IMG/VR virus record: IMGVR_UViG_3300036832_001810 | Span: 1-63,568 of that record | Source: a virus | Taxonomy: Duplodnaviria > Caudoviricetes | DNA length: 63,568 bases | Direction: 5' to 3' (one strand) | Made by a program: the position numbers and the translations under genes | Part shown: positions 16,020 through 60,052 of the stretch, piece after piece | How the letters are laid out: the number at the start of each line of letters is the position of its first letter | How positions within the stretch are numbered: the stretch's first letter is position 1 | The notes under the pieces: model-generated | Seen by the model: the letters and a program-made list of their open reading frames with translations, nothing else | Told to the model about the DNA's origin: nothing | The model's database searches: none

Positions 16020-16026
16020 TACCCCT

Positions 16027-39494: not shown

Positions 39495-39739
39495 ATATGT
39501 TTATCGTCATTCCCGCTGGCGCGGCTCTCTGGGTCCTGGTAAGCGGTATCGGTGACCTACCAGCCAACGAGCCGTTCTTTTCAAGCGTCGGCAAATTCCT
39601 TTTGCATGAGTTTCCTGGACTGACCGCCCGGCTTACGGGCTTCCTCGCCCTGGTCTGGTTCGGGACTTATGGTCTGTACCTCGTCCTCCACGGACTCGAA
39701 ATTCTCTTCCCTATCCTGGCTGCGCACCACCCGCTTTAG
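39491..39739 (+). CDS. Small membrane protein
   Basis: GTGA overlap; two hydrophobic segments. Confidence 0.55.
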   Translation: MNMFIVIPAGAALWVLVSGIGDLPANEPFFSSVGKFLLHEFPGLTARLTGFLALVWFGTYGLYLVLHGLEILFPILAAHHPL

Positions 39740-42700
39740 CGCGGCGGGTTGGGCCGGTTGTAGTAAGCCTGGCTGAACGGGTCCCAGGTGGGCTCGGGCT
39801 TGGGCACTGCGGGCACCAGGCTGTCCTTGTCCGGCGACAGCTTCATGCCCTCGGGCGCGATGTGCTTGGCGGCCTGCCCGGCGACTATGGTCTGGATGAT
39901 CTCCTTCCACTGACGCTCGTTCGCGGGCGACATATCTAACCCCGCCGCCTCGGCCATGCGCTCCATGCCGAGCAGCTCGACGGTCTTGCGCAGAGTGGGC
40001 ACCACGATGGTCTGGCCGACGAAGGGTACAGGCGTCAGCTCCTTCGCCGCCACTCCGATACCACGCAGAGTCTTGGCGGTGGGGCTTAGGTTCTTGTTGA
40101 TCAGCTCCCGCCCGGTGTAGTCCTGGTTGCTCGCCATGCGCGGCGCGGCGCGAAACCCAAAAGCCATCTTGTTGGCCATAAAACGCAAAGTGCCGACGGG
40201 GGCGCCATAGTCGTGGATATCCGTGCCCAGGGTCACGGCGTCGCCGGGCGCGCCTTTGAAGAACACGTTTTGGTAGATCTTGCGCCCCATCGAGTCTTCG
40301 CCCATGTAGACCTCAAACGGCCGGTCGGAGAACTGGTGGGTGTACATCAAGCTGGCCGCCTGCGTCGAGGCCAGGCCGTAGGCCGTCGCCTTGAGCCAGA
40401 AGGCGCGCTGCGCTCGCGCGGCCGGCGAACCGGCGAAGCGCTCGCGCATGGCTTGGGCGCCCGTGTAGCCGGCCTGGCGCGGGTCCCACATATTTTTGAC
40501 GCTCTGCACGTTGCTGTAGAGCCAGTCGGGGGCGAGAAACAGAAGGCGCGCGGTCTCCACGCTAGAGCGGTTCCAACCCAGGTTTTCCCAGTGCAGGCCG
40601 CCGTAGGTGGAGTTGACCTGGTGAGCGATGGAGCGCAGCGCCTGGGTGCGCTCGAAGGGCGTGGCGTTGGGGTTTTTGGCGAGCCAGGCGTCGCGCTTCA
40701 TGGCGTAATCGGCGACCTTGTACTGGCGCTGCACGCGGTCGAAGGTGAGCTTGGTGATGCCCTCGGCGAGCTGGTTGACCTGGCGCGGGCCGGGCACCTT
40801 GTTGATGATGTCGGTCCAGCTCGGCGTGGCGCTGGGGCGCAGGTTCTTGAAGGCCTCGTAAGTCTCGCCCTGCACCGAGGTGGTGCCGCCGTGCTTGATG
40901 AACTCCCGCTCGTCGGCCAGCGCCGTCGGGCTCCAATCGTTCCTGATGGCTTTGAGGAGCACCTGGGGAGCGCGGAAACCTGTGTTGGCGATGGCCATGT
41001 GGGTCTCCGCACCCAGGTGGAAGAGAGAGACCGACAGCTCGATGGCCTTGCTCTTGCGTTGCAGGTCGCGGATCTTCTGGGTAAGCTTGCTCGGGTAGTA
41101 GGGATCGGTTACCGGCTTCATAGCCTCGCCGATGAACTGGGGCACGTAGTAGCCGTAGTCGAGGGAATGCGCCACACCCGCCTGGTCGGTGTACGCGCCC
41201 GTCTTGTGGAAGAGCCGGGTATGCGGGGCGAGCACGTCCCAACCGCGCCCTATGCTGTCGCGGTTCGCCGCCCACTTGCCGATGCCGAGTTTGCCGAGCT
41301 GGTCGGCGAGCAGGCGCGTGGCGCGCGCGGTGGCGAATTTCTTGGCGTGGATGTTGAAGGCGTCGAACGCGTTCATGGTGCGCAGCTCGTTGCCGGCCGC
41401 GACCGCATCGAGCATGGTCGGGTAGTAGCGCTCCTGGCCGAACGCGAAGTTCTTGCCGATGTCGCCACTGGCGCGCGACTTGTCGGATAGCGGCAGGTCG
41501 CCTTCCTTGAAGAACATGTGCGGCACGTACTCGTGCGGGTCGATGGAGCTATCGAGGAAGCCGCGCGCCCGGCCCTCGGCGAGCGACTGGCTGGCGATGG
41601 CGGTGAGCGCCGTGTCGGCGCGCTGCATGGCGGGCGTGGGGTTGAGCGCGCGGTCGATCACCGGCTTGAGGTTGTTCAAAAACTTCTGCGTCTTGGCGAG
41701 CTGCGCCGGGTCGGTGGGCATGTTGGCGTGCGTGCCGTTGCGCCAGTCGAGCAGCTCCTGCGGCTTGTTGCGGAAGTCGCGCATCAAAGAGAGCGCTTCC
41801 TGGTCGAGCTTGTTGGGCAGGGTTTTGCGCAGCTCGTGGATCTGCTGGTTGACCGACGCCACCCAACTGTCGCGCTCGCTCGTGAAATACTGCAGGAACT
41901 GCTTGCCCGCCTCCTTCAATAGGGGCGGCGTGGTCGCCCGTTTGAGCGCGGCGAGCGCCTGCTGGCGCTGATCCCATACCTGTCTCGCCTCCTGCATCTG
42001 CGCGGTCACCTTGTCGAAGACCGGCTGCAGGGCGCCGAACAGGCTGCCCATGTAGGTGCTGCCTTGGGCAGTTGCCTCGGGCTCGGCTCCGGCTGGCGGC
42101 AGGTCCTCCACGTTCACGCCAGAGGTCGCCTCGGGGAGGGGCGGCGTGGGCGCCTCGGGGGTCGCTGGTGCCTCGGGGGTCGCTGGCGCCTCGGGGGCAG
42201 GAGCTTCGGCGGTGGCTTCCGGCTTAGGTGCCTCCGGCGCGGCAGCTTCCGGCGTCGCCGGCTCTTCGCCCAGGCTGGCATCCGAGAACTGGCGCAAGTC
42301 CGGTACCTGCACGATCCCCTTCTCGTCGAAGGCCCCCTGCTCGATCTGGTGTTTGATCGCCGCCTTGACCAGGTTGCCGTGCTCGCGCACGGATTTCTCG
42401 TCCAGGCCGGTGGCGTCCATCACAAATTTGAGATAACCCGCGTCGTTCTTACTGGGCGTTTTCTGCGCCGTGATGTACGCTGCCTTATCGATGTCGCTGT
42501 CGAACTGGGGAGTATAGCGGTCGGGGCCATAGCCGAAGCTGGGCTTGGCCCCACGCAAGTTCTTGGGCAGTTTGGGCAGCTCTTCCGGCTCGGGCGGCGC
42601 CATGGCCTCGCGCCCGGCCTTGAGGCGCTCGTTCTCGGCGCGCAGGGCTTCGAGCTGGGCGGCCGTGTCACTCGTTGCAGCAGGCGCTTCATTTGTTGCA

Positions 42701-44160
42701 GTCGCGGGCTCATTTGTTACAACAGCAGGTTCATTTGTTGCAGCGGGTGCTTCCGTCGTTGCAGCCGCTTCCGTGACAGGTGCAACCGTGCTCTTAGGCA
42801 CGACGACAATCTTGCTGTTGTCGCCTTCGCCGGTGAGGACCGTGGTCTGGTCCGGCCCCACCGGCTCGCCCGCGAACTGCGCCAGGTGGGGCGCATGCTC
42901 GCCCTCGACCACGGCGCCGTCGGCGGTCGTGGCGCGCACCTTGCCTTCGACCGGCGGCTCGGGCGCGGCTGGCTGAGCCGGTGTCGTCTGCTGGCCCGCC
43001 GCCGCCTGGGCGCGGGCTTCGAGCACCGGCGCGATCTTGGCCTTGAGCGCGGCCAGACCCTCGACTGAATAGTGCCCCGCGATCAGCCCGGTCAGGTCGC
43101 CAGCCAGGCTCGCGTACTCCTTGGGCAGGCCGAGCCGCGCGAGGCCCGCCTCGACCGCCTGTTGCGAGCCGACGCCGGTGGCCAGCGCCGTCGTGGTCAC
43201 GAGCGGCGCAGCCCCGAACGCGCCCAACATGAGTGGCGTGGCCACTCCCATGGCTCCCGCCGCCACGTCGTGAACGGCCCCGGCCGCCTGGCGCACGGCG
43301 GGCTCCTGCTGGGCCAGGTCGGCATAGCCGGTCTGATCGCCACCAGCGAGCTTAGCGAGCGCGCCCACCAGCTTCTTCTTGTCGGGGATGGTGGCCAGGC
43401 TTTCCACGCCCTGCGCCCCCTGGCCCACGCCTGCGCCCATGGTATGGATCAGCTTGTCGCCCAATTGGCTCATCAGACCGCCGCTCTCGGGCTGGGGCTG
43501 TTGCACCGACTGTTCCCAGGGCACAGGCAATGGCTTGATCGGCGCGGCCCCCGCCGGCAGCGGGCCGAGCTGCTCCATGCCGGGCACCACGCCGGGGATC
43601 GAGCCCACGCGCGGCGCCGGGGCGGCCGATTGCTGCGGCGGGGCCATCTCTTCCAGGTCCGAATCCTTGACCGAGGTGTCGTACTGCGGCCCCGAGGCGA
43701 CCTCTTCCAAGTCGTCGTCTTTGGGGCCGAGCGCGTTCAGGCGCTTCATGCCGCGCGCCACGTAGTTGCGCGTCTCCTTGTAAGGCACGCGCCCGTGCCA
43801 GGTGTCGAAGCGGGTCTCCCCCGCGTTATAGGCGGCCAGCACCTTCTGCGGATCGCCCCCGTATTTCTGGTTGAGGTACTGCAGGTAGCGCGTGCCGGCG
43901 TCGATGTTCTGCGCCGGGTCGCGCGGGTTGGTGGCGCCGTAGCTTTTGGCGGTGGCGGGCATGAGCTGCATCACGCCCATGGCGCCCTTGGGCGAGCGTG
44001 CACTGGGGTCGTAGTTGCTCTCGATCCCGGCCACGGTGTGGACCAGGGCCGGGTCTACGCCGTACTTGCTCGCGGCCTGGTCGAGCAGGGCCGGGATGTC
44101 GGGCTCGGGATCATCATTGAACGGCATTTTCTTTGCGGTGCCAGACGTTGCCGTTGGCAT
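39736..44160 (-). CDS. Large ejection (internal virion) protein with N-terminal lytic transglycosylase (SLT) domain; start may be 44127
   Basis: IESNY...A.SPKGAMGVMQLMP.TA, LAAYNAG, ETRNYV motifs; last gene of the ejection operon. Confidence 0.85.
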   Translation of the reverse strand: MPTATSGTAKKMPFNDDPEPDIPALLDQAASKYGVDPALVHTVAGIESNYDPSARSPKGAMGVMQLMPATAKSYGATNPRDPAQNIDAGTRYLQYLNQKYGGDPQKVLAAYNAGETRFDTWHGRVPYKETRNYVARGMKRLNALGPKDDDLEEVASGPQYDTSVKDSDLEEMAPPQQSAAPAPRVGSIPGVVPGMEQLGPLPAGAAPIKPLPVPWEQSVQQPQPESGGLMSQLGDKLIHTMGAGVGQGAQGVESLATIPDKKKLVGALAKLAGGDQTGYADLAQQEPAVRQAAGAVHDVAAGAMGVATPLMLGAFGAAPLVTTTALATGVGSQQAVEAGLARLGLPKEYASLAGDLTGLIAGHYSVEGLAALKAKIAPVLEARAQAAAGQQTTPAQPAAPEPPVEGKVRATTADGAVVEGEHAPHLAQFAGEPVGPDQTTVLTGEGDNSKIVVVPKSTVAPVTEAAATTEAPAATNEPAVVTNEPATATNEAPAATSDTAAQLEALRAENERLKAGREAMAPPEPEELPKLPKNLRGAKPSFGYGPDRYTPQFDSDIDKAAYITAQKTPSKNDAGYLKFVMDATGLDEKSVREHGNLVKAAIKHQIEQGAFDEKGIVQVPDLRQFSDASLGEEPATPEAAAPEAPKPEATAEAPAPEAPATPEAPATPEAPTPPLPEATSGVNVEDLPPAGAEPEATAQGSTYMGSLFGALQPVFDKVTAQMQEARQVWDQRQQALAALKRATTPPLLKEAGKQFLQYFTSERDSWVASVNQQIHELRKTLPNKLDQEALSLMRDFRNKPQELLDWRNGTHANMPTDPAQLAKTQKFLNNLKPVIDRALNPTPAMQRADTALTAIASQSLAEGRARGFLDSSIDPHEYVPHMFFKEGDLPLSDKSRASGDIGKNFAFGQERYYPTMLDAVAAGNELRTMNAFDAFNIHAKKFATARATRLLADQLGKLGIGKWAANRDSIGRGWDVLAPHTRLFHKTGAYTDQAGVAHSLDYGYYVPQFIGEAMKPVTDPYYPSKLTQKIRDLQRKSKAIELSVSLFHLGAETHMAIANTGFRAPQVLLKAIRNDWSPTALADEREFIKHGGTTSVQGETYEAFKNLRPSATPSWTDIINKVPGPRQVNQLAEGITKLTFDRVQRQYKVADYAMKRDAWLAKNPNATPFERTQALRSIAHQVNSTYGGLHWENLGWNRSSVETARLLFLAPDWLYSNVQSVKNMWDPRQAGYTGAQAMRERFAGSPAARAQRAFWLKATAYGLASTQAASLMYTHQFSDRPFEVYMGEDSMGRKIYQNVFFKGAPGDAVTLGTDIHDYGAPVGTLRFMANKMAFGFRAAPRMASNQDYTGRELINKNLSPTAKTLRGIGVAAKELTPVPFVGQTIVVPTLRKTVELLGMERMAEAAGLDMSPANERQWKEIIQTIVAGQAAKHIAPEGMKLSPDKDSLVPAVPKPEPTWDPFSQAYYNRPNPPR

Positions 44161-46309
44161 CCTTCCACCAGATGTCGCCGGTCACCTTGTTGCGGAGGGG
44201 CTGAGAGCCGGCCGGCCGCGTGGCCATCTGCGCCGGGACCAGCGGCACGCCCGGCGTGCCGGGCGCGGCCCACCCGGCGGGAGCTTTTGCCGGGGCTCCC
44301 GACCGCTGCGGAGGAGTTCCACCCGGCTGCGTAGGCTGTGGCTGCTGCGGTGCGGGCTGCTGTTGCGGCTGCGGCTGCGTGGCCTGCGGCTGCTTCGGCG
44401 CCGAAGTGGGCGCGGGCTTGAGCGCCGGGTTCTTGGCCATACCCTCGGCGGTGGGCTGGAAGTGCCGCCCGATCAGGGCGTTACTTACGTCCTTGGGCAC
44501 GATGGCGGCGCGGATACGGTTATGCACGCGCTCACGCTCGGCATCGCCGTTCGGGTTGGCGACGCCAAAGTGCGGATGATCTTTGTAGAGATCCGGGTCC
44601 ATGACGTGCTCGGCGGCGCGCTCCTTGGCGACCTGATAGAGCTGGGAAGGGGTCTTGATGTCGTTGCCGGCCGCATCCTTCACCGGCCATCCGTTGGCAT
44701 CGTAGTAAGTGTTGCCTACTTTGGCGACCTTGCCCAGCTCGTCGGTGATCATGGACAGGCCTGCCGTGCGCCGGTCGGCGTCGGTCCATTTGCGCTCGCC
44801 GCCGGGAGCAGCCGCCTTGTCGTCCACGCGCCGCTGGTGGGCGAGGGTCGCCGCCGCCACGCGCTGCTGGTTCTCGACGTTGTTTTTGTAGTCGAACAGG
44901 GCGCGCGCCACCTGGTCGCGATGGTCCTCTTTGACGGCCGCGAGGTCGGTGTCGAAGCTAGTCTTGTTGTCGAGGAAGTTCTGGCTGGCATTCACCACCT
45001 TCGGATCGTCGTCACTGAGCCCGGCGAGCGCGGCTTCGAGGTTCATGTGCTTCTGCCCGGCGGCGATGCTCTGCTTGGTGACCTGGTCTTGGACCTGGGT
45101 CTGGGCCTTCTGATAGCCATCGGCTTTCTTCTGGATGGTGTCGGTCACTTTATAGAGGTGCTGCAGGTTGGCGTTGCGCTCGGCCTGCTTCTGGCGCTCG
45201 GCGGTATTCATGATCGAGGCCGTCTCCGCGCCCACGCGCTGCTTGTAGGTCGCGAGCTTCTCGGCCAGCGAGGCCTGGGTGCGCAGCCGGGCTAGCTCCA
45301 ACTGGCGCATCTGCTCCTTCTGCTGGTCGGCCCAGGAGAGCGTGCCCACGGCGGCCTGGCCGGCGGCCTGGCCGAAGTAGTGCGACGGGCTCGCCGCCAG
45401 ACGCGCGCCCCACTCGATCAGGGCGCGCTGCCAGGTTGGCTTCGCCTTCAGCGCCTGGTCGTGCAGGTATTGGGACTGCTGGTCGTAGGCGCTGGTATCG
45501 GGGGCGCCGCCTGAAAGCCGCTCAGCCAGGTCGGTGTATTTGGCGACGTTCTCGGGCGAGGTCACATCCTCGGGCTTTTGAGCAACCAGGCCCTCGTAGC
45601 GGTCCTTTTCCTCCAGCTCGCTCGATACGTCGGGCGCCTGCGGCACGGCCGGCAGGGGCAGGTTGCGGCCGTAGACATCCTGGCCGCCCGCGCCAGGGGC
45701 GAAGGGCTGCATGGGCTGGAAGCGCGGATCGCTGTAGCGCACGGCGGGCACATTCTTGACCGAGTAGAGCTGGGCGAGCGCCTGGTCACGCGTGGGATTG
45801 CGCCGCATCGGCAGGTTGGCCAGATCCACATTGGCTAGATCCGCGTTGGCGCTGTCGCCGTCGTTACCGTCATTGCCGTCACTGCCGTCGCTGCCGTCGT
45901 CCGCATAGTCCTCGTCATCGTCGCCGACCGGGCCGCCGCGCGCCATCCGCCCCGGCATCCGTAGCTGGGCCGGAGGAGTGCCGGGCGCGGGGGAGCCCAG
46001 GCCGCCCGAGCCGCCGCCGGTGAGATTGACCGGCGGCATGCCGGGAGGCGTCGCCTGCGTGGGCACGGACCCCGGAGGAAGGCCGTGTGCTGGCGGCATG
46101 CGCGCTTGCAGGGAGCGGATCAGGTCCTGCGAGACCGAGGACTGCGGAGCCTGGGCCTGCGCGGCCCCCGAGCGCAGTTTCTGGCGGCGCGCAATCTCGG
46201 CAACCACGAGATAGGGCGGCACGACTCCGCTCGGGTTCTGCGCCTGCATGCCCAGCCACTGGTCGGGCATCTCTTTGAGATCGTTGGCGACCTGAATCAA
46301 GTCGGGCAT
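44114..46309 (-). CDS. Ejection (internal virion) protein
   Basis: N-terminal L..MPDQ.L...PPYLV..EI.RR motif, MARGG, amphipathic A/G segment; AAGGA RBS. Confidence 0.65.
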   Translation of the reverse strand: MPDLIQVANDLKEMPDQWLGMQAQNPSGVVPPYLVVAEIARRQKLRSGAAQAQAPQSSVSQDLIRSLQARMPPAHGLPPGSVPTQATPPGMPPVNLTGGGSGGLGSPAPGTPPAQLRMPGRMARGGPVGDDDEDYADDGSDGSDGNDGNDGDSANADLANVDLANLPMRRNPTRDQALAQLYSVKNVPAVRYSDPRFQPMQPFAPGAGGQDVYGRNLPLPAVPQAPDVSSELEEKDRYEGLVAQKPEDVTSPENVAKYTDLAERLSGGAPDTSAYDQQSQYLHDQALKAKPTWQRALIEWGARLAASPSHYFGQAAGQAAVGTLSWADQQKEQMRQLELARLRTQASLAEKLATYKQRVGAETASIMNTAERQKQAERNANLQHLYKVTDTIQKKADGYQKAQTQVQDQVTKQSIAAGQKHMNLEAALAGLSDDDPKVVNASQNFLDNKTSFDTDLAAVKEDHRDQVARALFDYKNNVENQQRVAAATLAHQRRVDDKAAAPGGERKWTDADRRTAGLSMITDELGKVAKVGNTYYDANGWPVKDAAGNDIKTPSQLYQVAKERAAEHVMDPDLYKDHPHFGVANPNGDAERERVHNRIRAAIVPKDVSNALIGRHFQPTAEGMAKNPALKPAPTSAPKQPQATQPQPQQQPAPQQPQPTQPGGTPPQRSGAPAKAPAGWAAPGTPGVPLVPAQMATRPAGSQPLRNKVTGDIWWKDANGNVWHRKENAVQ

Positions 46310-46318
46310 CGGGCTTCC

Positions 46319-48364
46319 TTACGCGGCCTTTTGAAACGCGGTCAGGCCGCTGGTGTAATTGGGGCGCTTGGGGCGCGGGGTCTTGAGGCCGCCGTCGATG
46401 GCCATCAGGCCGCCCTTCTTCGCGCCCCCGGCGAAGGCGCCCAAGCCGGCCGCCGCGCCGCCCACGATCATGTTGAAGACGTTGGGGCCGGGGGTGTTCT
46501 GGTACTGCACGCCCTGCTGGCTCGACTGCGTGCCGCCCTGCGCGGGCAGCTTGGTCGCGAGGTTGGCCAGCCAGTCGATGGACTGGTAGGGGAAGTTCTG
46601 CTGATACTGCCAGTATTGGTAGGCGCGGTTGGCGGCATCCTGGTCGTAGCCCTGCTGCATGCCCGCCGCCTGGCCCATCGCACCCGTGGCCGCCAGGTCG
46701 TTGCCGAAGCCCTGCTGCTGCCAGTTGCCGTAGAGCTGGTTCTGGTTACCCATGAAGTTCAGGTAGTTCAGGTTCATGCCCTGCTGCGCCTGCTGCGCCT
46801 GGTTCTGGGCGACCTGCGACTGCAGGTTGAGCCCGGCGCCGTACTGGTTGGCCTGCGACTGCATATTCTGCGCGTTCAGGCCCAGGTTCTGGGTCTGCAT
46901 GCCGCTCTGCAGGTTGCCCTGGTACTGCGTGCCGAGCGCGCCGTACATGCGCTGGAGCTGCGCCTGCTGCGCCTGCTGGTTGGCGAGCTGGGCCTGCATC
47001 TGTTGCCCCGCGTTAAAAGTCGAGCCCTGGAAGCCCAGGTTAGTGGCGTTCAAACCGGCCTGCAGGTTGGCCTGCTGGTTGAGTTGCTGCGCCTGCAGGT
47101 TCTGCGTGTTGTTGAACTCGCCGGTGTTGATACCCGCCTGCTGGTTGGCGAGCTGCTGGTTGTAGGCCATCTGCTGGTTCGAAATCTGCGCCTGCTGGCC
47201 GAGCGTGGCGCCGAGCTGCTGCGTGCCCAAAAGCGCCTGCAGGTTCTGGCCGCCCACGGTGAGCCCGGCCTGCTGGTTGGCGAGCGCCGCCTGCAGGTAG
47301 CTACTGGTGCCCAGGCCCTGGGTCGCGAGCGCGGCCTGCTGGTTGGCGAGCGCGGTCTGCATCTGCGCCTGCTGGTTGGCGAGGCCCGCCTGCATCCCGG
47401 TCTGCACGTTGAACTGCTGGCCCTGCAGGCCCAAGCCCTGCTCGGTATTGAACTGCTGCGTACCCTGCTGGTAGGCGCCCTGCAGGCCCTGCGCCTCGAT
47501 GTTCTGCAGTTGCAGGTTCTTGTTGCGTTCGGCTTCCGCATCCTGCACCGCCTGGCGCGTGCCGCCGAACGCGCCCGCCTGCGCCGCCTGGGCGTGCTGC
47601 TGGGTCTGCTGCGCCGCATAGTCGGCGTTGACGTTGGCCTTCTGCGCGTCGAGCACCTGCTGCGTGTAGGGCGACATGTACTGCTGCGCGGTGCCGGGCG
47701 CGGTCCACGATTGCGTGCCCACGGTGCCGGTCTGTACCGCCAGGGGCGCCGCCGCGATCTGGTAGCTCGACAGGCCGCCCGGCGCCTGTACCTGCTGCGG
47801 CCCGGCCATCTGGTAGTTCTGCAGGTTGGGGCCGGTGATCTGCGGCAGCCCCGAGATGCGGTCGTAGCTCACGCCCTGCGGGGCCTGCACCTGCTGCACC
47901 TGGGTCTGGTAGTCGCTGGCACTGCCGCCCACGCCCGTGCCCGGCTGCACCTGCATGCCGGGGCCGCCGCCGTTATAGCCGGCGAAGGGATCGGTCATCT
48001 GAAAACCGGGGACCTGGAACTGCTGCGGGGTGTAGTTGGGATTGAAGTTGATGGTGTTGGGGTTCGTGATCCCGGCCGAGGCCTGCTGCGCGAAGGCGTT
48101 GGCGTTGCCCATCACGCCCGAGAAGTTGGGCTGGCCGCTCGCCAGGCCGCCCGCCTGCGAGAGGTAGGCCAGCATGGCCGGCGACATGGGCGCGGTCAAC
48201 CCGGCGCCGCCGCCCGGATACTGCGGCGTGTCGAGGAAGTTGCCGCCCGGCCAGATCAGGCCGGTGCCCGCCCCCATGATCCCGCCCCAGTATTGCTGCT
48301 GCTGCGTGCTCGGGATATTCTGCGAAGTCGAATTACTGTTGCTGGTAGTGGTGGTGGTCGGCAC
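46319..48364 (-). CDS. Gln-rich ejection/DNA-pilot protein
   Basis: GTG 48364 after GAGGAG; YMSPY.QQV.D, GAFGG.R, ANQQA repeats, C-terminal G/A membrane-like segment. Confidence 0.75.
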   Translation of the reverse strand: MPTTTTTSNSNSTSQNIPSTQQQQYWGGIMGAGTGLIWPGGNFLDTPQYPGGGAGLTAPMSPAMLAYLSQAGGLASGQPNFSGVMGNANAFAQQASAGITNPNTINFNPNYTPQQFQVPGFQMTDPFAGYNGGGPGMQVQPGTGVGGSASDYQTQVQQVQAPQGVSYDRISGLPQITGPNLQNYQMAGPQQVQAPGGLSSYQIAAAPLAVQTGTVGTQSWTAPGTAQQYMSPYTQQVLDAQKANVNADYAAQQTQQHAQAAQAGAFGGTRQAVQDAEAERNKNLQLQNIEAQGLQGAYQQGTQQFNTEQGLGLQGQQFNVQTGMQAGLANQQAQMQTALANQQAALATQGLGTSSYLQAALANQQAGLTVGGQNLQALLGTQQLGATLGQQAQISNQQMAYNQQLANQQAGINTGEFNNTQNLQAQQLNQQANLQAGLNATNLGFQGSTFNAGQQMQAQLANQQAQQAQLQRMYGALGTQYQGNLQSGMQTQNLGLNAQNMQSQANQYGAGLNLQSQVAQNQAQQAQQGMNLNYLNFMGNQNQLYGNWQQQGFGNDLAATGAMGQAAGMQQGYDQDAANRAYQYWQYQQNFPYQSIDWLANLATKLPAQGGTQSSQQGVQYQNTPGPNVFNMIVGGAAAGLGAFAGGAKKGGLMAIDGGLKTPRPKRPNYTSGLTAFQKAA

Positions 48365-48809
48365 TGCCGGTCTCCTCGTTAGCCCACGTAACAGGCAGAC
48401 CGTAGTGGTGGCGGCGATACGTCCGCAGCCAGCCCATACGGCCAGTGACATTCATACGCGTGCAGCCGCTCGCTTGCGCGAACTGGCCGAGGTTGTGCGC
48501 GGCGGATTCCGCCCACGTTTCCACATGGCGGCCGACCAGGAGATCCACCTTGAGGAGTTTCCCCGTCGGCGTGGCCACAATTGTTGTCACGATAACACTG
48601 GAGAGGCGCGAGGGGAATAGGGGGTCGGGAGAGACCCATACGTCCTTGGTCCCGGCGAGCAGGGCGCAACGCAGGTTGGCAAGCGCCACGCCCTGGCGCG
48701 GATGGTTTTTCTTGAGCTGGAAGGCGGCCTCGACCTCGGGCCAGTGGAAATGAACCGCCCAGCGGTCGAGCCGGGACACGGTCGTCGAAGGAAGGGTGCG
48801 CGCTGCCAT
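48333..48809 (-). CDS. GNAT-like virion assembly protein preceding the ejection genes
   Basis: AAGGA RBS, ATG 48809; FA...GC..M.V.GR.GWLR motif. Confidence 0.65.
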   Translation of the reverse strand: MAARTLPSTTVSRLDRWAVHFHWPEVEAAFQLKKNHPRQGVALANLRCALLAGTKDVWVSPDPLFPSRLSSVIVTTIVATPTGKLLKVDLLVGRHVETWAESAAHNLGQFAQASGCTRMNVTGRMGWLRTYRRHHYGLPVTWANEETGSADHHHYQQQ

Positions 48810-48833: not shown

Positions 48834-48895
48834 GCCAGCCGCCGCTAACACCCCATGACGAGAGAAAACGGCGGCCGGCGTAGGTTCGACCCTAC
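48834..48895 (-). ncRNA. Candidate structured sRNA / 5' leader with antisense loop
   Basis: Hairpin GUAGG/CCUAC, then 11-bp stem GCCGGCCGCCG/CGGCGGCUGGC with 24-nt loop; extended -10 TGtTACACT at 48910-48902. Confidence 0.55.
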
Positions 48896-48983
48896 GGCTT
48901 CAGTGTAACATGCGCGAATTACAAGAATTACTCGAAATACTTAGCTAACTCCTTACTCCCGGCTATGTTACCCCTGGGATACG

Positions 48984-50534
48984 GTGCCCAAATCGAAGCC
49001 CAGCCCGCAGGAGGAGATCGAGTTTTTCGAGAAGTATTTCCGTCACCTGGCGCCGCGCGAGCAGGCGGCCACGCGCCGCGCCATGGCGCAGCTTTTAGGC
49101 GACCCGGAGGGCATCGACAACGTGGAGGAGGCGCGCGAGCGCTTCCTGCCTTTTGTGCGCCACGTCTGGCCCGAGTTCATCGCCGGGCGGCACCACCAGG
49201 TGATGGCCGAGACCTTCGAGCGGATCGCGCGCGGCATGCTCAAGCGCGTGATCATCAACATGGCGCCGCGCCATACGAAAAGCGAGTTCACGAGCTACCT
49301 GCTGCCCGCCTGGTTCTTGGGCAAGCACCCCCGGACCAAGATCCTCGAAGGCTCGCACAAGGTGGAACTGAGCGCGGGCTTCGGCCGCAAGATGCGCAAC
49401 CTGATTGCGTCAGAGCGCTACCAGGAGGTCTTTCCCGGCGTCACGCTTTCGAAGGACAGTAAGGCGACCCATCGCTGGGCGACCCAGCAGGGCGGCGAGT
49501 TCTTCGCCATCGGCACCACCGGCGGCGCGGCCGGGCGCGGCGGCGACCTGGTGATCATCGACGACCCGCACAGTGAGCAGGACGTGCTCAAGAACGCCAA
49601 CGCCAATTTCGACAAGGTGTGGAACTGGTATCTGGCCGGGCCGCGCCAGCGCCTGCAGCCCAGTGCCGCCATCCTCATTGTCATGACCCGGTGGGGTGAA
49701 CGCGATTTGACCGGGATGCTCCTGCAGCAGGCGATTGAGGAGGAGGATGGCGAGCAGTGGGAGGTGATCGAGCTACCCGCTATTCTACCCTCGGGGGAAA
49801 GCCTGTGGCCGGAGTACTGGCCGATTGAGGAGCTGGAACGCACGCGCGCCACGCTCCCGATCTCGCGCTGGGAGGCGCAGTACCAGCAGCACCCGACGAG
49901 CGAGGAGGGCGCCCTCATCAAGCGCGAGTGGTGGCAGGACTGGCGCGAGAGCAACCCGCCCGCCTGCGAGTTCATCGTGCAGAGCTGGGACACGGCCTTT
50001 AGCGAAAAGGCGGTAAGCAATCGCAGCGCCTGCATCACCTGGGGCCTCTTTCGCTACCGCAACGCGGGCGACCCGCCGCGCATCGTGACCGGCATCATGC
50101 TGCTCGACGCCTGGGCCGGCCGCCTCAACTTTCCCGAGCTGAAGCAACAGGCGCGCCGCCTCTACGAGCAGTGGACGCCCGACTGCCTGCTGGTCGAGGG
50201 GCGCGCCACCGGCAAACCCCTGCAGCAGGAGCTGTGGAAGATGGGTATCCCGGTCAGTGACACGGTGCCGGTGCGCGGCTCGGACAAAATCGTCCGCACC
50301 AACGCGGTCGCCGACCTGTTCAGTACGGGCACCGTGTGGGCGCCGCTCGGCCGGCGCTGGGTCGAAGAGGTGCGCGAGGAGATGGCCTGCTTCCCGAACG
50401 GCAACGCCGACGACCTGCACGATGCCGCCGTCCACGGCCTCCTGCGCCTGCGCCAGGGCGGCCTGATCCGCATTGCGTCGGACGAAAGCGAGGAGCAGGA
50501 CCACGAGCCGCGCGCGGCCAGAGCCTACTACTAA
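48984..50534 (+). CDS. terL: Terminase large subunit
   Basis: IINMAPRHTKSE Walker A, IIDDPH, IVMTRW, QSWDTAF, FPNG..DD..D nuclease motifs. Confidence 0.95.
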   Translation: MPKSKPSPQEEIEFFEKYFRHLAPREQAATRRAMAQLLGDPEGIDNVEEARERFLPFVRHVWPEFIAGRHHQVMAETFERIARGMLKRVIINMAPRHTKSEFTSYLLPAWFLGKHPRTKILEGSHKVELSAGFGRKMRNLIASERYQEVFPGVTLSKDSKATHRWATQQGGEFFAIGTTGGAAGRGGDLVIIDDPHSEQDVLKNANANFDKVWNWYLAGPRQRLQPSAAILIVMTRWGERDLTGMLLQQAIEEEDGEQWEVIELPAILPSGESLWPEYWPIEELERTRATLPISRWEAQYQQHPTSEEGALIKREWWQDWRESNPPACEFIVQSWDTAFSEKAVSNRSACITWGLFRYRNAGDPPRIVTGIMLLDAWAGRLNFPELKQQARRLYEQWTPDCLLVEGRATGKPLQQELWKMGIPVSDTVPVRGSDKIVRTNAVADLFSTGTVWAPLGRRWVEEVREEMACFPNGNADDLHDAAVHGLLRLRQGGLIRIASDESEEQDHEPRAARAYY

Positions 50535-56037: not shown

Positions 56038-56387
56038 GGACGGTCGCCTTTCTGTTCCTTCACCCACTCCATCAGCGACTCGGCGTCGCAGGTGTCGATG
56101 ATGTCGTCCAGGCCGTCCAGATCGCCCTTGCCGATATACAACTCAATCACGCGCAGAGCGTTATCCAGCGTGCAGCGCGCGGTGATGGCCTTGTCGATCA
56201 GCCCTTGCAGGCCCAGCAGGTCGCCGCCTTCCAGGCAGAGTTGGCACTCGTACCGCTGCCTTTTCTCTGAGAAAGCGATCACCGTGGTGACATGCGGCGG
56301 GTCCTGGTGCGGCTTGTCGTGCTCCGCGCCGCAGCACTGGCAGTAGGTCCCGGCAATCAGCCTGGTTTTCGGTTTGGTTCTGGTCAT
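56034..56387 (-). CDS. Hypothetical Zn-binding protein (follows HH1)
   Basis: AAGGA RBS; CxxC pairs. Confidence 0.7.
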   Translation of the reverse strand: MTRTKPKTRLIAGTYCQCCGAEHDKPHQDPPHVTTVIAFSEKRQRYECQLCLEGGDLLGLQGLIDKAITARCTLDNALRVIELYIGKGDLDGLDDIIDTCDAESLMEWVKEQKGDRP

Positions 56388-56408
56388 GGGGTACTGGGAT
56401 TCCTTGGG

Positions 56409-56460
56409 TCCCGACGCCTCACGGCGTTTCGCTAGACTTTCACTAGCTCGTCAGGGGGTT
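56409..56460 (-). ncRNA. Hammerhead ribozyme type I, HH1 (predicted cut 56413/56412)
   Basis: CCCC-CUGACGA-GCUAG UGAAAGU CUAGC-GAAA-CGCC GUGA GGCG-UC^GGGA. Confidence 0.9.
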
Positions 56461-56464
56461 AGGG

Positions 56465-57049
56465 TTATTCCTCCTCCTCGCTGGCAATCTGGAGAGTTGA
56501 GTGCAGGACGCTGCACTCGTTGCAGAACAGGGAAAGCGCCCCATGGACCGCGCAGTAAAAGGCGCGCAGACCGGCCTCCGGGTGGCATTCGCTCATCATC
56601 TCCACGGGATGAGGATCGTCGGGATGGTCCGGGCATTGCAGCTCCTCGTCGAGCACCTCGCGCACTACGGGCAGGGCGGTCTCCAGCGGGTTGGCGCACA
56701 AGGGGCAGTTGGCATCGTTGAGTTTGCCCTGGGCGTCGATCCTGGCCTCGACCTTCATCTCATCCGCCGAGAATGCGCTGACGATCTCGATCACCGTAAC
56801 CGGATTGATCTGGTAACTGCGGGCGACCTCGACAATGCCCTGGGCGATCTGCGGGCTATTCGCAATCGCCTGCGCGATTGCCTCGCGGTCGGTCGCGTCG
56901 CGCCCGGCCTCGCTCAACTCGCGTGAGATCCGCTTCACATTGGCGGCCATCTTCAACGCTATCGCGCGTGCGATGGCCGCAATTCTTTCTTCCGGCTCGC
57001 CGTACTTCTCCGCGAGCGCTTTGACTTTGGCTTCATCTAACACAGTCAT
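56465..57049 (-). CDS. Hypothetical protein with C-terminal Cys/His cluster (follows HH2)
   Basis: AAAGGA RBS; sole ORF between HH2 and HH1. Confidence 0.7.
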   Translation of the reverse strand: MTVLDEAKVKALAEKYGEPEERIAAIARAIALKMAANVKRISRELSEAGRDATDREAIAQAIANSPQIAQGIVEVARSYQINPVTVIEIVSAFSADEMKVEARIDAQGKLNDANCPLCANPLETALPVVREVLDEELQCPDHPDDPHPVEMMSECHPEAGLRAFYCAVHGALSLFCNECSVLHSTLQIASEEEE

Positions 57050-57071
57050 GGGGTACTGGGATTCCTTTCTC

Positions 57072-57134
57072 TCCCGACGCCGTCGCTTCCCAGCGGGGCG
57101 TTTCGCCGGACTCTCACCGGCTCGTCAGGGGGAT
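57072..57134 (-). ncRNA. Hammerhead ribozyme type I, HH2 (cut 57076/57075)
   Basis: CCCC-CUGACGA-GCCGG UGAGAGU CCGGC-GAAA-CGCC..CGCU GGGA AGCG..GGCG-UC^GGGA. Confidence 0.9.
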
Positions 57135-58157
57135 ATGGCCTTTCTCCTTGGCGCGACGCTCGATCAGATGCTCGATGCCGTCGGCCAACTGCGCCACGCG
57201 GTTGGCCTCGCGCACGATCTCGGCTGGATCGACCGCGCCGGGGCGCGCGTCCTGGTAGGCGAAGTCGGTCCAGATCTTCAGGCGGCCCACGGCCTCGTCC
57301 AGGCGCCGCACCTGGGAGCGGATCAGCTTCTCGGTGGTGGTCATGAGGCAACTCCCTTGCGTTTCTCGAAGTCCGGGGCGGTAGAGTTCTCCGGCGGGCA
57401 ACCCTCGTTCCACTCCTGCTCGACTTCGCCCATGCCCAGGTTGTAGACGATGGCCCCGCTGGCCAGGAGCGCATAGAACGTGCGCTCCACGCTCCACAGG
57501 GCAGTGAGCGCGTTCTTCAGGCTCCGGCCCTCGTAAATGGGGTACTGCGGATGACGGTCGTCCGTCACCCGCACGTAGTATTTCTTCATGCGGCCTCCTT
57601 GCGGCGTTTCAGGTTGGGGTTCTTGAGCGCGATCTCGGTGCCGAACTCGCAGCCGATGCCCCGGCGATACCACTCGGGCTTGGTCACGTCCTTAGCGGCT
57701 TTCTTGTTCTGCTGGCGCAGCCACGCGGGCGGCTTGGTGGCGAACGTCATCACGCCCAGGTAGCCCTCGCTCTCGAAGTAGCCCTGGACGAAAGCCCAGC
57801 CGATGCCGTTCATGGTGATGTAGATGCGGTCGCCTACCTTGGGCAACGGGAAGTCGCCGCTCCACTTGAGCAGATTGCCGTCGTCCTCGCGGTAGGTGGG
57901 GAAGACCGCGTCGTCGAGCTTGCGCGGCTTACTCATCTCGCCGGTCGCTACCGGCTCGGGAATAAAGAAGCGCTCCTTCATGCGTGGACGACCTCCCAGG
58001 CACTGAAGCCCGTCACAAAGCGGCTGGTCACTTCGAGCACGTAGGCGGCCTGGCCATCGGCGGCCGTCTGCCGCGCGAAGGTGATGGCCTCGGCTTCGGT
58101 GTCGAAGGCCGAACGCTTCACGTTCTGGTCAACGACGACGTAGGTAATGGTTGTCAT
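57114..58157 (-). other. Four coupled small ORFs (57978-58157, 57586-57981, 57341-57589, 57114-57344)
   Basis: ATGA overlaps; first start lies directly after the HH3 leader. Confidence 0.65.
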
Positions 58158-58177
58158 GGGGTTGGGATTCCTTTGGG

Positions 58178-58230
58178 TCCCGACGCCTCGCGGCGTTTCG
58201 CCCGACTTGCACGGGCTCGTCAGGGGGTTA
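58178..58230 (-). ncRNA. Hammerhead ribozyme type I, HH3 (cut 58182/58181)
   Basis: UAACCCC-CUGACGA-GCCCG UGCAAGU CGGGC-GAAA-CGCC GCGA GGCG-UC^GGGA. Confidence 0.9.
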
Positions 58231-59059
58231 TCGGTCCCGGTGCTGTTCCTCCCCGTCGCGGGTCGCGCAATCGTTCCAGGGCCGACCGCACTCGCAGATC
58301 TCGGGATTCTCGGGCTCGACCTCAATGACCTCGGCGGTGTAGCAGCCCTCGCCGCCACGGTCCTCCACATCCTCAGAGGTCAGCCCAAGGTCTTCCAGAT
58401 TGCGCTCCTCGGCCCAGTGATCCGCGAAGGCCTGCGCCTCGGCCTCGGTATCGAATGCCTGTGGGAAAGTGCCGCAAGCCTCGCTTCCGTTGTCCCAGTT
58501 CACGTAGTACGGCATCAGAGTAATCCCTTCCGGCCTTCCGGCGAATTCGCATAGGCGTCGTCGCCCGACTCCAGGCGCTGCGCCTCGGTGTCGAGGTTCT
58601 TCAGCATCTGGCTCATGGCCTCGCGCAGCCGCTCGATGGCCTCCACCGTAGTGGCGCTATTGGCGGCGATGGTCAGGGGCGCGAACCAGCGCTGTACCTC
58701 GCGCATCAGCTCGGCGCGGTCACTGCGCCCGTCGAACATGCGTAGCGCGGCGCCCTGGATGCCGGCCTCGCGCAGCATCGTCTTGAACATGTGCTCGTAG
58801 TTGGGGGTGATGGTGATGTGTTCCATGGCTAGTTCACCGCCTTCTTCTGGCCCAGGCCCTTGCGGATGATCTCTTTGGGCGCGGCGTGGCGCGGGTAGTT
58901 GAGGCTGCCCATGCCGTCCACCGTGGTCATGTTGTGCGCGATGTAGGCCAGATACTCCTTGGGGCGGTAGCTCAGCTTCAGGGCCTCGGCCAGCGTGTCG
59001 CCCTTGGCCCAGCAGCCGTTCGAGCCAATGACCAGGATCTTCAGGTCTGTGATCTTCAT
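58228..59059 (-). other. Three small ORFs (58829-59059, 58515-58826, 58228-58515)
   Basis: Abutting ORFs between HH4 and HH3; the last is very acidic. Confidence 0.65.
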
Positions 59060-59082
59060 GGGGTGTTACTCCTTGGGATGAT

Positions 59083-60043: not shown

Positions 60044-60052
60044 CGAAATTCC

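What the first reader, a model, noticed from the sequence alone, without database searches (positions are those of the whole stretch)
48834..48910. Structured RNA whose loop is antisense to the start-codon region of the ribozyme-led genes
Seen: on the minus strand an extended -10 (TGtTACACT) predicts a start near 48895, at the first base of a hairpin. An 11-bp stem follows (one G-U that would be an A-C mismatch on the plus strand, favouring minus) with the 24-nt loop UUUUCUCUCGUCAUGGGGUGUUAG. This loop is complementary to UAACACCCCAUGA (13 nt; genes after HH4 and HH7), ACCCCAUGACGA (12 nt; gene at 59874), ACCCCAUGAC (10 nt; genes after HH1, HH2, HH3, HH6) and 9/10 for the HH5 gene. Inference: a trans-acting antisense RNA, or the leader of the late ejection operon, could silence all early cassettes through their shared start region. 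This would explain why that sequence is conserved into codon 2.
Basis: partly seen in the sequence, partly recalled or inferred. Interest (0 to 1): 0.82.

Follow-up and report, generated by a model that had tools for sequence, protein, structure and literature searches.

The report
Conserved anti-start-codon RNA hairpin in phage
A conserved RNA hairpin at the head of a phage's virion-protein operon carries nine bases that mirror the start-codon signature of its early genes, so it may switch those genes off by base pairing, though this has not been tested.

Summary
On the minus strand there is an extended -10 (48910-48902), a 5'-terminal hairpin (48895-48880), and an 11-bp stem with one G-U and a 24-nt loop (48879-48834). 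The loop matches seven early-gene start regions over 13, 13, 12, 10, 10, 10 and 10 nt.

New evidence: the element recurs at the same place (opposite strand, upstream of the large terminase gene) in three other lineages. The 9-mer UCAUGGGGU is the only long invariant block of that intergenic region. The stem keeps pairing through three two-sided changes and three wobble pairs that work only on the minus strand.

In the one other complete relative, all 11 CCCCAUGA gene starts, whether ribozyme-led or promoter-led, fall within the top 14 predicted partners. Three more distant relatives lack hairpin, motif and ribozymes together.

No terminator follows the hairpin, so it is an operon leader, not a discrete small RNA.

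Caveats: no RNA data exist; the loop is probably partly closed; duplex energy alone does not separate targets from background; other hammerhead-cassette phages have repeated start modules with no inverted copy in the fragments held.

Best reading: a multi-target anti-start leader RNA (confidence about 0.4). It is a new variant of phage antisense control.

The parts
48902..48910 (-). Extended -10 promoter element TGtTACACT; predicted start near 48895
   Evidence: Sequence. The same TGnTAnAnT element sits 3-6 nt before the first hairpin in G001 (TGgTAGAAT), L001/L002/L090 (TGcTATACT) and L180 (TGcTATATT). It is the only such pattern in DNA outside my crude gene map below 51 kb. The consensus scan did not call it because the -35 is poor.
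48880..48895 (-). Hairpin 1 at the predicted 5' end (GUAGG / GUCGAA / CCUAC)
   Evidence: Every lineage has a hairpin at this place, but of different sequence.
48834..48879 (-). Hairpin 2: 11-bp stem (one G-U) and 24-nt loop 48845-48868
   Evidence: A covariance model built from window + G001 finds it again in L001/L002/L090 (23.7 bits, E 0.021) and L180 (20.8 bits, E 0.1), with no better hit among 25 sources, 344,090 bases. Pair tally.
48850..48858 (-). Invariant loop core UCAUGGGGU, the complement of ACCCCAUGA
   Evidence: It is the only long invariant block in the four-lineage alignment of the intergenic region. Predicted cost of opening it is about 5.5 kcal/mol.
48333..48809 (-). First ORF of the operon (158 aa from ATG 48809), 24 nt after hairpin 2
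   Evidence: 42% identical over 150 aa to the first ORF of L001. G001 and L180 have something different at this place. No PHROG hit.
39736..48451 (-). Conserved downstream genes: 710 aa, 731 aa and 1474 aa (N-terminal transglycosylase; internal virion / ejection type)
   Evidence: PHROG matches for the 1474-aa protein. The ~700-aa and ~730-aa proteins are conserved in G001, L001 and L180.
48984..50534 (+). Large terminase subunit, transcribed away from the hairpin; a lone plus-strand gene
   Evidence: phrog_38, E 9.5e-92. Used to find relatives.
56383..56392 (-). Predicted target: start of the 117-aa ORF (10 nt match)
   Evidence: Rank 1 in the accessibility-aware scan.
57045..57054 (-). Predicted target: start of the 194-aa ORF (10 nt)
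   Evidence: Not scored, because the method kept a different, buried duplex for that stretch.
58153..58162 (-). Predicted target: start of the 59-aa ORF (10 nt)
   Evidence: Rank 3.
59056..59068 (-). Predicted target: start of the 76-aa ORF (13 nt)
   Evidence: Rank 5.
59868..59879 (-). Predicted target: start of the 97-aa ORF (12 nt). Not ribozyme-led; it follows the stop codon of the ORF before it.
   Evidence: Rank 4.
60858..60867 (-). Predicted target: start of the 121-aa ORF (10 nt)
   Evidence: Rank 7.
61760..61772 (-). Predicted target: start of the 238-aa ORF (13 nt)
   Evidence: Rank 6.
56426..61843 (-). Span holding seven hammerhead cores (56426-56454, 57100-57128, 58195-58223, 59110-59138, 60462-60490, 60901-60929, 61815-61843). 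The 5' core strand AACCCCCUGAYGAG could also pair with the loop: 12 bp with one mismatch.
   Evidence: Core pattern hits; sequences; loop-core duplexes of -24.4 to -24.8 kcal/mol before accessibility. Rfam gives only one weak hit: RF00008, 26.8 bits against a gathering score of 48.5.

Best explanation
The element is the structured 5' leader of the minus-strand operon for internal-virion (ejection) proteins. It is probably transcribed from an extended -10 promoter, starting near 48895. Its second stem-loop displays UCAUGGGGU, the exact complement of (A)CCCCAUGA. That motif is the signature over the start codon of the first cistron of each early mRNA unit, whether the unit is released by a hammerhead ribozyme or made from its own promoter.

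Proposed mechanism (inferred, not shown): once the operon is transcribed, the leader, or a stable 5' fragment of it, pairs with those start regions. Contact begins at UCAU/AUGA in the apical loop and spreads into GGGG/CCCC by displacing weak U-G pairs. This covers the start codon, blocks 30S binding and so shuts off synthesis of 7-10 early proteins together.

Shown here: the anatomy, its conservation, the strand bias, the complementarity and its co-occurrence with the targets.
Inferred: transcription, pairing in the cell, and the sign of the effect.
For: 1. Anatomy as described.

2. Four lineages carry the same layout between the terminase gene and the conserved ~700-aa / ~730-aa genes: extended -10, a hairpin at the 5' end, then a GC stem with a pyrimidine-tract + UCAUGGGGU loop. 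The lineages are the window, G001 (terminase 84% identical), L001/L002/L090 (77%) and L180 (77%).

3. TCATGGGGT is the only long invariant block in an intergenic alignment with 52% mean column identity.

4. In the model-fitted alignment, the 7 outer stem pairs are standard pairs in 28 of 28 cells. There are two-sided changes at pairs 2, 5 and 10. G-U or U-G wobbles occur at three different pairs in three lineages, and each would be A-C on the plus strand.

5. The minus strand folds 10.8-19.7 kcal/mol better than the plus strand in all four lineages. Among 400 random 144-nt genome segments the mean difference is +3.1 (sd 8.8), and 0.75% reach -19.7.

6. Predicted targets are open, costing 0.2-3.4 kcal/mol to unfold.

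7. Accessibility-aware ranking. Window: exact-motif early starts take ranks 1 and 3-7 of 2124 sites, and near-motif starts take ranks 8 and 11. G001: ranks 1-14 are 11 exact-motif starts, 2 near-motif starts and 1 hammerhead core.

8. In G001, 5 of the 11 motif starts follow sigma-70-type promoters and not ribozymes. The motif is therefore kept independently of the ribozyme module.

9. Distant relatives G003-G005 (terminase 62-65% identical) lack the hairpin, have only 1-2 CCCCATGA copies each, and have 0 hammerhead cores.

10. The plus-strand ATG in the loop opens no conserved ORF. Read by eye it is 16 aa in L001 and 3 codons in L180; by script it is 17 aa in the window and 120 aa at low GC3 in G001. 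It has no Shine-Dalgarno sequence.
Against: - There are no expression data of any kind.
- Duplex energy alone does not single out the targets. Unrelated sites score -24 to -27 kcal/mol, the same as the targets.
- The loop core costs about 5.5 kcal/mol to open, because the pyrimidine tract pairs with GGGG in the minimum-energy folds of all four lineages.
- The absolute stability of the region is ordinary for this genome: 38.6% of random segments fold as well. The z-score against shuffles is only -2.05.
- Rank 2 in the window scan is a non-early site, the start of the 1238-aa ORF at 16027.
- The co-occurrence test rests on 2 complete genomes that are close kin, against 3 distant ones, so it is confounded with phylogeny. 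The L001-type and L180 contigs are too short to show their early genes.
- Repeated start-region modules exist in other hammerhead-cassette phages with every copy on one strand: 5 of 5 in G006 and 9 of 9 in G007, records estimated 41% and 10% complete.
- C-rich ACACC(C)AUG contexts recur in unrelated ribozyme-led cassettes, so the target motif may be kept for a reason of its own.
- One regulator against 7-11 abundant early mRNAs needs favourable stoichiometry.
Confidence: 0.4

Rival explanations
1. The pairing is real but acts the other way, or both ways. Abundant early mRNAs bind the loop of the nascent late leader. This delays, destabilises or unlocks expression of the virion-protein operon, so the two sets of RNAs titrate each other.
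For: It rests on the same complementarity and conservation. The hairpin lies 11-24 nt before the first start codon. In G001 and L001 no Shine-Dalgarno sequence lies between them, so the leader structure could govern translation of the first gene. With 7-11 target species against one leader, stoichiometry favours control of the leader.
Against: The first gene after the hairpin is not the same in all lineages. No alternative structure that would link loop pairing to the downstream start was found. A terminator-like alternative appears only in L180.
Confidence: 0.15
2. It is a cis-acting leader structure with no RNA-RNA partner, serving as a 5' stabiliser, a pause or antitermination signal, or an operator for an RNA-binding protein. 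The likeness to the start motif is then inherited from an inverted copy of the early 5'-UTR module, or reflects what a protein recognises.
For: Two hairpins lie directly after a promoter, one of them at the very 5' end. A conserved pyrimidine tract partly closes the loop, which an antisense role does not require. Repeated start modules exist elsewhere without a known antisense copy.
Against: A conserved 9-mer that happens to be the exact reverse complement of the genome's most repeated start signature is very unlikely by accident. A decaying relic would not stay invariant while its flanks and stem change. The spacing between the two hairpins ranges from 0 to 23 nt, which fits poorly with a rigid two-hairpin device.
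Confidence: 0.25
3. The site works as DNA or on the plus strand. Options are a double-stranded ACCCCATGA site for a DNA-binding protein that also sits on the early gene starts, a packaging or cruciform signal beside the terminase gene, or part of the terminase mRNA leader.
For: On double-stranded DNA the loop core and the targets are the same site. The element lies about 105 nt from the terminase start. The arms are near-palindromic, so the plus strand also scores 22.6 bits with the model.
Against: - Wobble pairs in three lineages and the large fold asymmetry favour a minus-strand RNA.
- In the targets the motif always sits in register on a start codon, at variable distance from promoters, which points to RNA.
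- There is no plus-strand gene or promoter upstream that would transcribe the hairpin.
- The plus-strand mini-ORF is not conserved.
Confidence: 0.12
4. It is a chance or neutral inverted copy with no function.
For: The genome is GC-rich and folds strongly everywhere. Only four lineages are available.
Against: The core is invariant while 48% of intergenic columns differ. Pairing is maintained through two-sided changes. A promoter element is conserved beside it.
Confidence: 0.05

Closest known systems
c4 antisense RNA of phages P1 and P7 (immI region)
   Same: It is a phage-encoded RNA that blocks translation by pairing around a ribosome binding site, with the complementary bases thought to sit in loops of a structured RNA (review PMC12197685, passages read).
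   Different: c4 acts on one operon (ant) and serves immunity. Here one loop matches 7-11 dispersed first cistrons. The RNA heads a virion-protein operon, and no link to an antirepressor is seen. From recall: c4 is cut out of its own target transcript. Whether this leader is processed is unknown.
Multi-target bacterial small RNAs with one conserved seed, e.g. GcvB
   Same: One short conserved region pairs with many mRNAs (abstract of PMC9299463 seen in the listing). From recall: the GcvB seed is G/U-rich and its sites are C/A-rich elements at translation starts, much like GGGGUGU against ACACCCC here.
   Different: GcvB is a host gene with its own terminator and depends on Hfq. This element has no terminator, belongs to a phage, and its targets are the phage's own early genes.
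T4 RegA translational repressor (recalled, not looked up)
   Same: The logic is the same: many early mRNAs share a start-region signature that one late-acting factor recognises to shut them off together.
   Different: RegA is a protein. Here the proposed factor is an RNA loop, and recognition would be by Watson-Crick pairing.
Clustered hammerhead ribozymes flanking genes in prophages
   Same: The target side matches Perreault et al. 2011 (PMC3088659, passages read): several hammerheads flanking single genes or short blocks in prophage transcripts, thought to cut long RNAs into gene-length mRNAs.
   Different: The passages read mention no antisense partner or shared start-codon signature. The ribozymes here have helix I open and only about 3 bp long, and they fall below Rfam's threshold.
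P22 sar, lambda OOP and aQ antisense RNAs
   Same: They are small phage RNAs that lower expression of phage genes by pairing (PMC12197685).
   Different: Each has a single target. OOP and aQ are listed there as cis-encoded, overlapping their targets, and sar as trans-acting. This element lies 7-13 kb from its predicted targets and matches them only over 9-13 nt.

Membership tests
Loop-presented antisense regulatory RNA (c4-like / trans-acting sRNA) | An RNA is made from the stated strand | not testable with these tools
   Only a predicted extended -10, conserved in four lineages. No RNA run is listed for this DNA.
Loop-presented antisense regulatory RNA (c4-like / trans-acting sRNA) | The complementary bases sit in a hairpin loop | tested here: met
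   The core lies inside the loop of an 11-bp stem in the folds of all four lineages, though it is partly closed by weak pyrimidine-GGGG pairs.
Loop-presented antisense regulatory RNA (c4-like / trans-acting sRNA) | Complementarity covers the ribosome binding site or start codon of the target mRNAs | tested here: met
   9-13 nt centred on the AUG of 7 ORFs in the window and 11 in G001. These rank top once accessibility is included.
Loop-presented antisense regulatory RNA (c4-like / trans-acting sRNA) | Regulator and targets are kept together in relatives | tested here: inconclusive
   Both present in 2 of 2 complete genomes with the hairpin and both absent in 3 of 3 distant relatives. The L001-type and L180 contigs show the loop but do not reach the early genes.
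Loop-presented antisense regulatory RNA (c4-like / trans-acting sRNA) | Pairing-dependent repression | not testable with these tools
   This needs reporter, toeprint or gel-shift assays with compensatory mutations.
Discrete small RNA gene | Its own terminator after the structured part | tested here: not met
   No terminator-like site directly after hairpin 2 in the window, G001, L001 or L180. A weak one lies inside the first ORF at 48775-48758.
Any Rfam family | A match to a curated covariance model | tested here: not met
   No hit at 48.8-48.9 kb at gathering score or at E up to 5.
Hammerhead ribozyme (for the hairpin itself) | CUGANGA core, helix II, GAAA, and a cleavage triplet | tested here: not met
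   The plus strand reads ACCCCAUGACGAGAGAAAAC: A in place of core C3, and no helix II. No Rfam hit.
Upstream small ORF / leader peptide on the plus strand | A conserved reading frame with a ribosome binding site | tested here: not met
   By script, 17 aa in the window and 120 aa at GC3 0.51 in G001. Read by eye, 16 aa in L001 and 3 codons in L180. No Shine-Dalgarno sequence upstream.
Two-hairpin antitermination RNA of the HK022 put type (recalled) | Two stem-loops at fixed short spacing just after a promoter | tested here: inconclusive
   Two hairpins follow the promoter in all lineages, but the spacing is 0 nt (window), 1 nt (G001) and 23 nt (L001). No model of put was available to compare.

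The most novel reading that the evidence does not exclude
The leader hairpin is the hub of an RNA-only early-to-late switch. One loop masks the start codons of every first cistron of the early regulon. The same bases also pair with the 5' core strand of the hammerheads (AACCCCCUGAYGAG, 12 bp with one mismatch). It would therefore block both translation and ribozyme processing, while the early mRNAs in turn hold back the late leader. This would be an RNA counterpart of T4 RegA built into a mutual toggle.
Probability: 0.15. Interest if true: 0.85.

Novelty: new variant of a known kind. Interest (0 to 1): 0.6.

Why it matters
Phage antisense RNAs described so far act on one gene or one operon. 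A leader-embedded loop that recognises a shared start-codon signature on 7-11 separate early messages would show that a phage can run a timed, regulon-wide translational shut-off with nine bases of RNA.

It would also give a reason for the odd CCCC spacer before the AUG of these genes. And it would link, for the first time, the widespread hammerhead gene cassettes of prophages to a dedicated regulator.

The idea is directly testable with short synthetic RNAs and compensatory mutations. It also makes a sequence prediction for relatives whose early regions are not yet assembled.

Tried and rejected
- Rfam at gathering and at E up to 5: nothing at the locus.
- GenBank phages, distant DNA search: only a 110-nt terminase match to phage DSL-LC04, which has a different gene order.
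- Duplex-only scan with the full loop: targets are not separated from background.
- Counting perfect matches of 10 nt or more against shuffled loops and random 24-mers: not discriminating.
- Plus-strand leader peptide: rejected, not conserved.
- Minus-strand start at the loop AUG: rejected. It stops after 3 codons in the window, is out of frame in L001 and is in frame only in G001.
- Terminator or attenuator: no U-tract after the stem. An alternative terminator-like fold appears only in L180.
- tRNA-like 3' end / attachment site for hairpin 1: considered because of a GGTTCGA-like loop on the plus strand, then dropped, because hairpin 1 differs in sequence in every lineage.
- Pairing of the start motif with 16S rRNA: considered from recall only. 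The host is unknown, so it was not tested.
- Widening the comparative set:
  - Terminase searches of viral, metagenome and genome collections.
  - Ribozyme, start-motif and promoter patterns.
  - The 278-aa early protein.
  - These gave G001 plus fragments only. G009 has the terminase gene cut at the contig end. Hits outside G001 looked like chance or unrelated promoters.
- Sequencing runs: no RNA holder listed.
- MAFFT alignment of the four hairpins misaligned the stems, so I used a model-fitted alignment instead, which leans towards the structure.
- A weak model hit in L184 lies in coding sequence and was dismissed.
- Literature: searches listed no paper describing an antisense partner of hammerhead cassettes or a multi-target anti-start RNA in a phage. 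Only listings, one set of passages from each of two papers, and one abstract were seen. Supplements were closed.
Full report
WHAT THE WINDOW IS. The window is a whole virus record of 63,568 bp, estimated 99% complete, with 64% G+C. It carries an integrase next to a tRNA-Leu gene, primase and helicase genes, a portal gene and a large terminase gene. No phage RNA polymerase was found among the proteins scanned. The finding lies in a 175-bp gap between two genes read in opposite directions. One is the large terminase gene (48984-50534, plus strand, phrog_38, E 9.5e-92). The other heads a minus-strand operon: a 158-aa ORF (48809-48333), then proteins of 710, 731 and 1474 aa, the last with an N-terminal transglycosylase domain typical of internal virion or ejection proteins.

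THE OBSERVATION.
- TGtTACACT lies at 48910-48902.
- Seven bases later, at 48895, a small hairpin begins (GUAGG / GUCGAA / CCUAC, to 48880).
- It runs straight into an 11-bp stem (48879-48869 with 48844-48834) that has one G-U pair.
- The stem encloses the 24-nt loop UUUUCUCUCGUCAUGGGGUGUUAG (48868-48845).

Perfect complementarity to the loop is 13 nt at 59056-59068 and 61760-61772, 12 nt at 59868-59879, and 10 nt at 56383, 57045, 58153 and 60858. The match is 9 of 10 at 60409. Each of the seven exact sites has its ATG at the head of an ORF of 59-238 aa with GC3 0.79-0.95.

The 9-mer ACCCCATGA occurs exactly eight times: seven on the minus strand at these starts, and once on the plus strand in this loop. 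With one mismatch allowed the count is 28, against 10.5 +/- 3.4 in shuffles.

Seven hammerhead cores lie on the minus strand at 56426-61843, each about 25-45 nt before a motif start. Rfam reports only one of them, and weakly (26.8 bits against a gathering score of 48.5).

RELATIVES. Terminase searches and a ribozyme pattern gave three further lineages that share the gene order:
- G001, a complete 66,378-bp record with terminase 84% identical.
- L001/L002/L090, 77% identical, contigs of 12 kb or less.
- L180, 77% identical, 8.4 kb.

All three have, on the strand opposite the terminase gene, an extended -10 (TGgTAGAAT, TGcTATACT, TGcTATATT). A hairpin starts 3-6 nt after it. Then comes a GC-rich stem whose loop holds a pyrimidine tract followed by UCAUGGGGU.

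In a four-way alignment of the intergenic region (52% mean column identity), TCATGGGGT is the only long invariant block. A covariance model built from the window and G001 alone recovers the L001-type hairpin (23.7 bits, E 0.021) and the L180 hairpin (20.8 bits, E 0.1). Nothing scores better among 25 sources totalling 344,090 bases.

In the model-fitted alignment the seven outer pairs are standard pairs in 28 of 28 cells. Pairs 2, 5 and 10 show changes on both sides. Pairs 4 (window), 5 (G001) and 7 (L180) are G-U or U-G wobbles, which would be A-C mismatches on the plus strand. That alignment leans towards the structure by construction.

The ~700-aa and ~730-aa proteins downstream are conserved in all four lineages. 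The first small ORF is shared only by the window and L001 (42% identity).

WHICH STRAND. For the same 144-nt segments, the minus strand folds better than the plus strand in every lineage.

| Lineage | Minus strand (kcal/mol) | Plus strand (kcal/mol) |
|---|---|---|
| Window | -56.7 | -37.0 |
| G001 | -50.8 | -40.0 |
| L001 | -62.8 | -50.6 |
| L180 | -66.3 | -48.0 |

For 400 random segments of the window the difference averages +3.1 (sd 8.8), and only 0.75% reach -19.7. The absolute stability is not unusual, however: 38.6% of random segments fold as well. The 108-nt leader has z = -2.05 against shuffles.

The TGnTAnAnT pattern occurs nowhere else in DNA outside my rough gene map below 51 kb. 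The consensus promoter scan calls nothing on either strand, because the -35 is poor.

The plus-strand ATG in the loop has no Shine-Dalgarno sequence and opens unrelated mini-ORFs of 17 aa, 120 aa at low GC3, 16 aa and 3 codons. I conclude that a minus-strand RNA is the functional form. This is an inference from sequence only.

LEADER OR SMALL RNA. No terminator-like site follows hairpin 2 in any lineage. The first start codon follows after 24 nt (window), 11 nt (G001) and 13 nt (L001). The element is therefore a leader of the operon, unless it is cut out later. No terminator separates the early genes from the far end of the terminase gene either, so read-through transcripts could also carry the hairpin.

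THE TARGETS. In G001 the motif CCCCATGA heads 11 minus-strand ORFs of 48-277 aa. Six follow hammerheads. Five follow copies of a sigma-70-type promoter that has a conserved GTTTCACCCCAAG element upstream. So the start signature is kept independently of the ribozyme. It marks the first cistron of each early mRNA unit: AAGGA, 3-6 nt, CCCC, AUG, A.

In the window, opening the 9-nt target costs 0.2-3.4 kcal/mol in 78-104-nt contexts. Opening the loop core costs about 5.5 kcal/mol in both leaders, because the pyrimidine tract pairs weakly with GGGG. That leaves CGUCAU (window, G001), UCAU (L001) or UUCGUC (L180) as the apical loop.

With duplex energy alone the test fails: unrelated purine-rich sites score -24 to -27 kcal/mol, like the targets.

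With opening energies added, the window scan gives 2124 distinct sites with a duplex of -12 or better, on both strands. After the trivial self-complement, it places exact-motif early starts at ranks 1, 3, 4, 5, 6 and 7. Near-motif starts (54589, 62960) come at ranks 8 and 11, and the 9-of-10 site at rank 40. Rank 2 is the start of a 1238-aa plus-strand ORF at 16027. The site at 57046 was not scored, because the method keeps only the best raw duplex per stretch.

In G001, ranks 1-14 are all in the early region: 11 exact starts, 2 near-motif starts and 1 hammerhead core.

The loop can also pair with the ribozymes' 5' core strand, 12 bp with one mismatch.

CO-OCCURRENCE. Three more distant relatives (G003-G005, terminase 62-65% identical, two of them complete) have no hairpin before the terminase gene. 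They carry 1-2 copies of CCCCATGA and no hammerhead core. So hairpin, start signature and ribozymes go together in 2 of 2 complete genomes and are missing together in 3 of 3. The two groups are also the two phylogenetic groups, however. The L001-type and L180 contigs stop before their early regions, and G009 is cut inside its terminase gene.

EVIDENCE THAT CUTS THE OTHER WAY. The hammerhead subtype seen here, CCCCUGAYGAG...CGAAAC...GUCGGG, is common. The pattern matched in 97 stretches of viral contigs, and my own scan of those loci found 108 matches. Several of those phages have their own repeated start modules, with every copy on one strand of the incomplete records held:
- AAGGATCATG, 5 of 5 copies on one strand in G006 (record 41% complete).
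- CCAGAAGGAG, 9 of 9 copies on one strand in G007 (10% complete).

C-rich ACACC(C)AUG contexts also recur in unrelated cassettes. The shared start region could therefore be explained by spread and homogenisation of a 5'-UTR module, or by some intrinsic role of the C-rich spacer, without any antisense RNA.

What that does not explain is a nine-base reverse complement of the signature held invariant in a hairpin loop in four lineages, while its flanks and stem change.

MECHANISM AND RIVALS. The best reading is a leader-embedded anti-start RNA. It would be made when the virion-protein operon is transcribed. It would touch the early start regions through UCAU/AUGA, extend into GGGG/CCCC, and cover the start codon, lowering translation of 7-10 early proteins at once (confidence 0.4).

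The same pairing could instead, or also, let abundant early mRNAs control the late leader (0.15). A purely cis-acting leader structure or protein operator (0.25), a DNA-level or plus-strand role (0.12) and no function (0.05) remain possible.

COMPARISON WITH WHAT IS KNOWN.
- The closest described system is the c4 RNA of P1 and P7. Its loops are thought to pair around the ribosome binding site of ant mRNA (PMC12197685, passages). It has one target operon.
- In logic the element resembles multi-target seed RNAs such as GcvB (abstract of PMC9299463; seed details recalled) and the T4 RegA protein (recalled).
- Clustered hammerheads flanking prophage genes are known (PMC3088659, passages). No antisense partner is mentioned in the passages read.
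- Three literature searches listed nothing like this arrangement.

I file it as a new variant of phage antisense control, not as a member of any named family. It has no Rfam match, and transcription and repression could not be tested.

LIMITS. There are no RNA data. The host is unknown. There are only four lineages, two of them complete. Supplements of the papers were not available.

Noticed in passing
window 56426-61843 (-), and a degenerate copy near 63120-63151 (-): Seven hammerhead cores, each directly after the stop codon of the gene before it. Helices II and III are closed and helix I is open and only about 3 bp (CCC/GGG). Rfam reports one of them, at 26.8 bits against a gathering score of 48.5. 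An eighth copy near 63143 has CGAAAA in place of CGAAAC and no helix III. The same subtype pattern matched in 97 stretches of viral contigs.
   Followed up: partly
window 63059-63069 (-), upstream of the TTGACA promoter read by eye; five copies in G001: A conserved GTTTCACCCCAAG element sits just upstream of the -35 of sigma-70-type early promoters. In G001 the promoter spacer is also conserved, which suggests an operator. Similar TTTCACCCCAA-TTGACA arrangements appear in a few unrelated GC-rich viral contigs (L275, L294, L298).
   Followed up: partly
window 16016-16037 (+): The start of a 1238-aa ORF (ATG at 16027) reads UACCCCUAUGACGACG, a near copy of the early start signature with one extra base. 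It ranks second among predicted partners of the loop. It may be chance or an additional target.
   Followed up: no
window 35723-36968: An integrase gene (35723-36823, +) lies next to a tRNA-Leu gene (36882-36968, -), so the phage is probably temperate. The attachment site was not looked for.
   Followed up: no
window 48984-50534 (+): The large terminase gene is a lone plus-strand gene between minus-strand modules. It starts with GTG and has a weak or absent Shine-Dalgarno sequence in the window and L001. No small terminase gene precedes it, and no terminator separates it from the converging early genes.
   Followed up: partly
window 48758-48775 (-): A terminator-like hairpin with a weak U tail lies 30 nt inside the first ORF of the operon. 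If it were used, it would give an RNA of about 140 nt. It was not found at the matching place in the relatives.
   Followed up: partly
window 48333-48451: The 158-aa ORF and the called start of the 710-aa ORF overlap by 119 nt. Homology to the relatives begins at about residue 30-44 of the 710-aa ORF, so its true start is probably further downstream.
   Followed up: no
G001 (reverse-complement coordinates 62440-62520, - strand): Upstream of the first early gene there are short repeats, GGGGGCTCAT twice and GGGGGTTCA twice (one copy extended to GGGGGTTCAAAAGTT). One of them contains CUCAUGGGGG, which resembles the loop core. Meaning unknown.
   Followed up: no
L335 (G007) 2993-6457 and L383 (G006): Other phage fragments carry arrays of 4-5 hammerheads, each followed by a lineage-specific repeated start module (CCAGAAGGAG nine times; AAGGATCATG five times). 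Repeated 5'-UTR modules therefore seem to be a general trait of hammerhead gene cassettes.
   Followed up: partly
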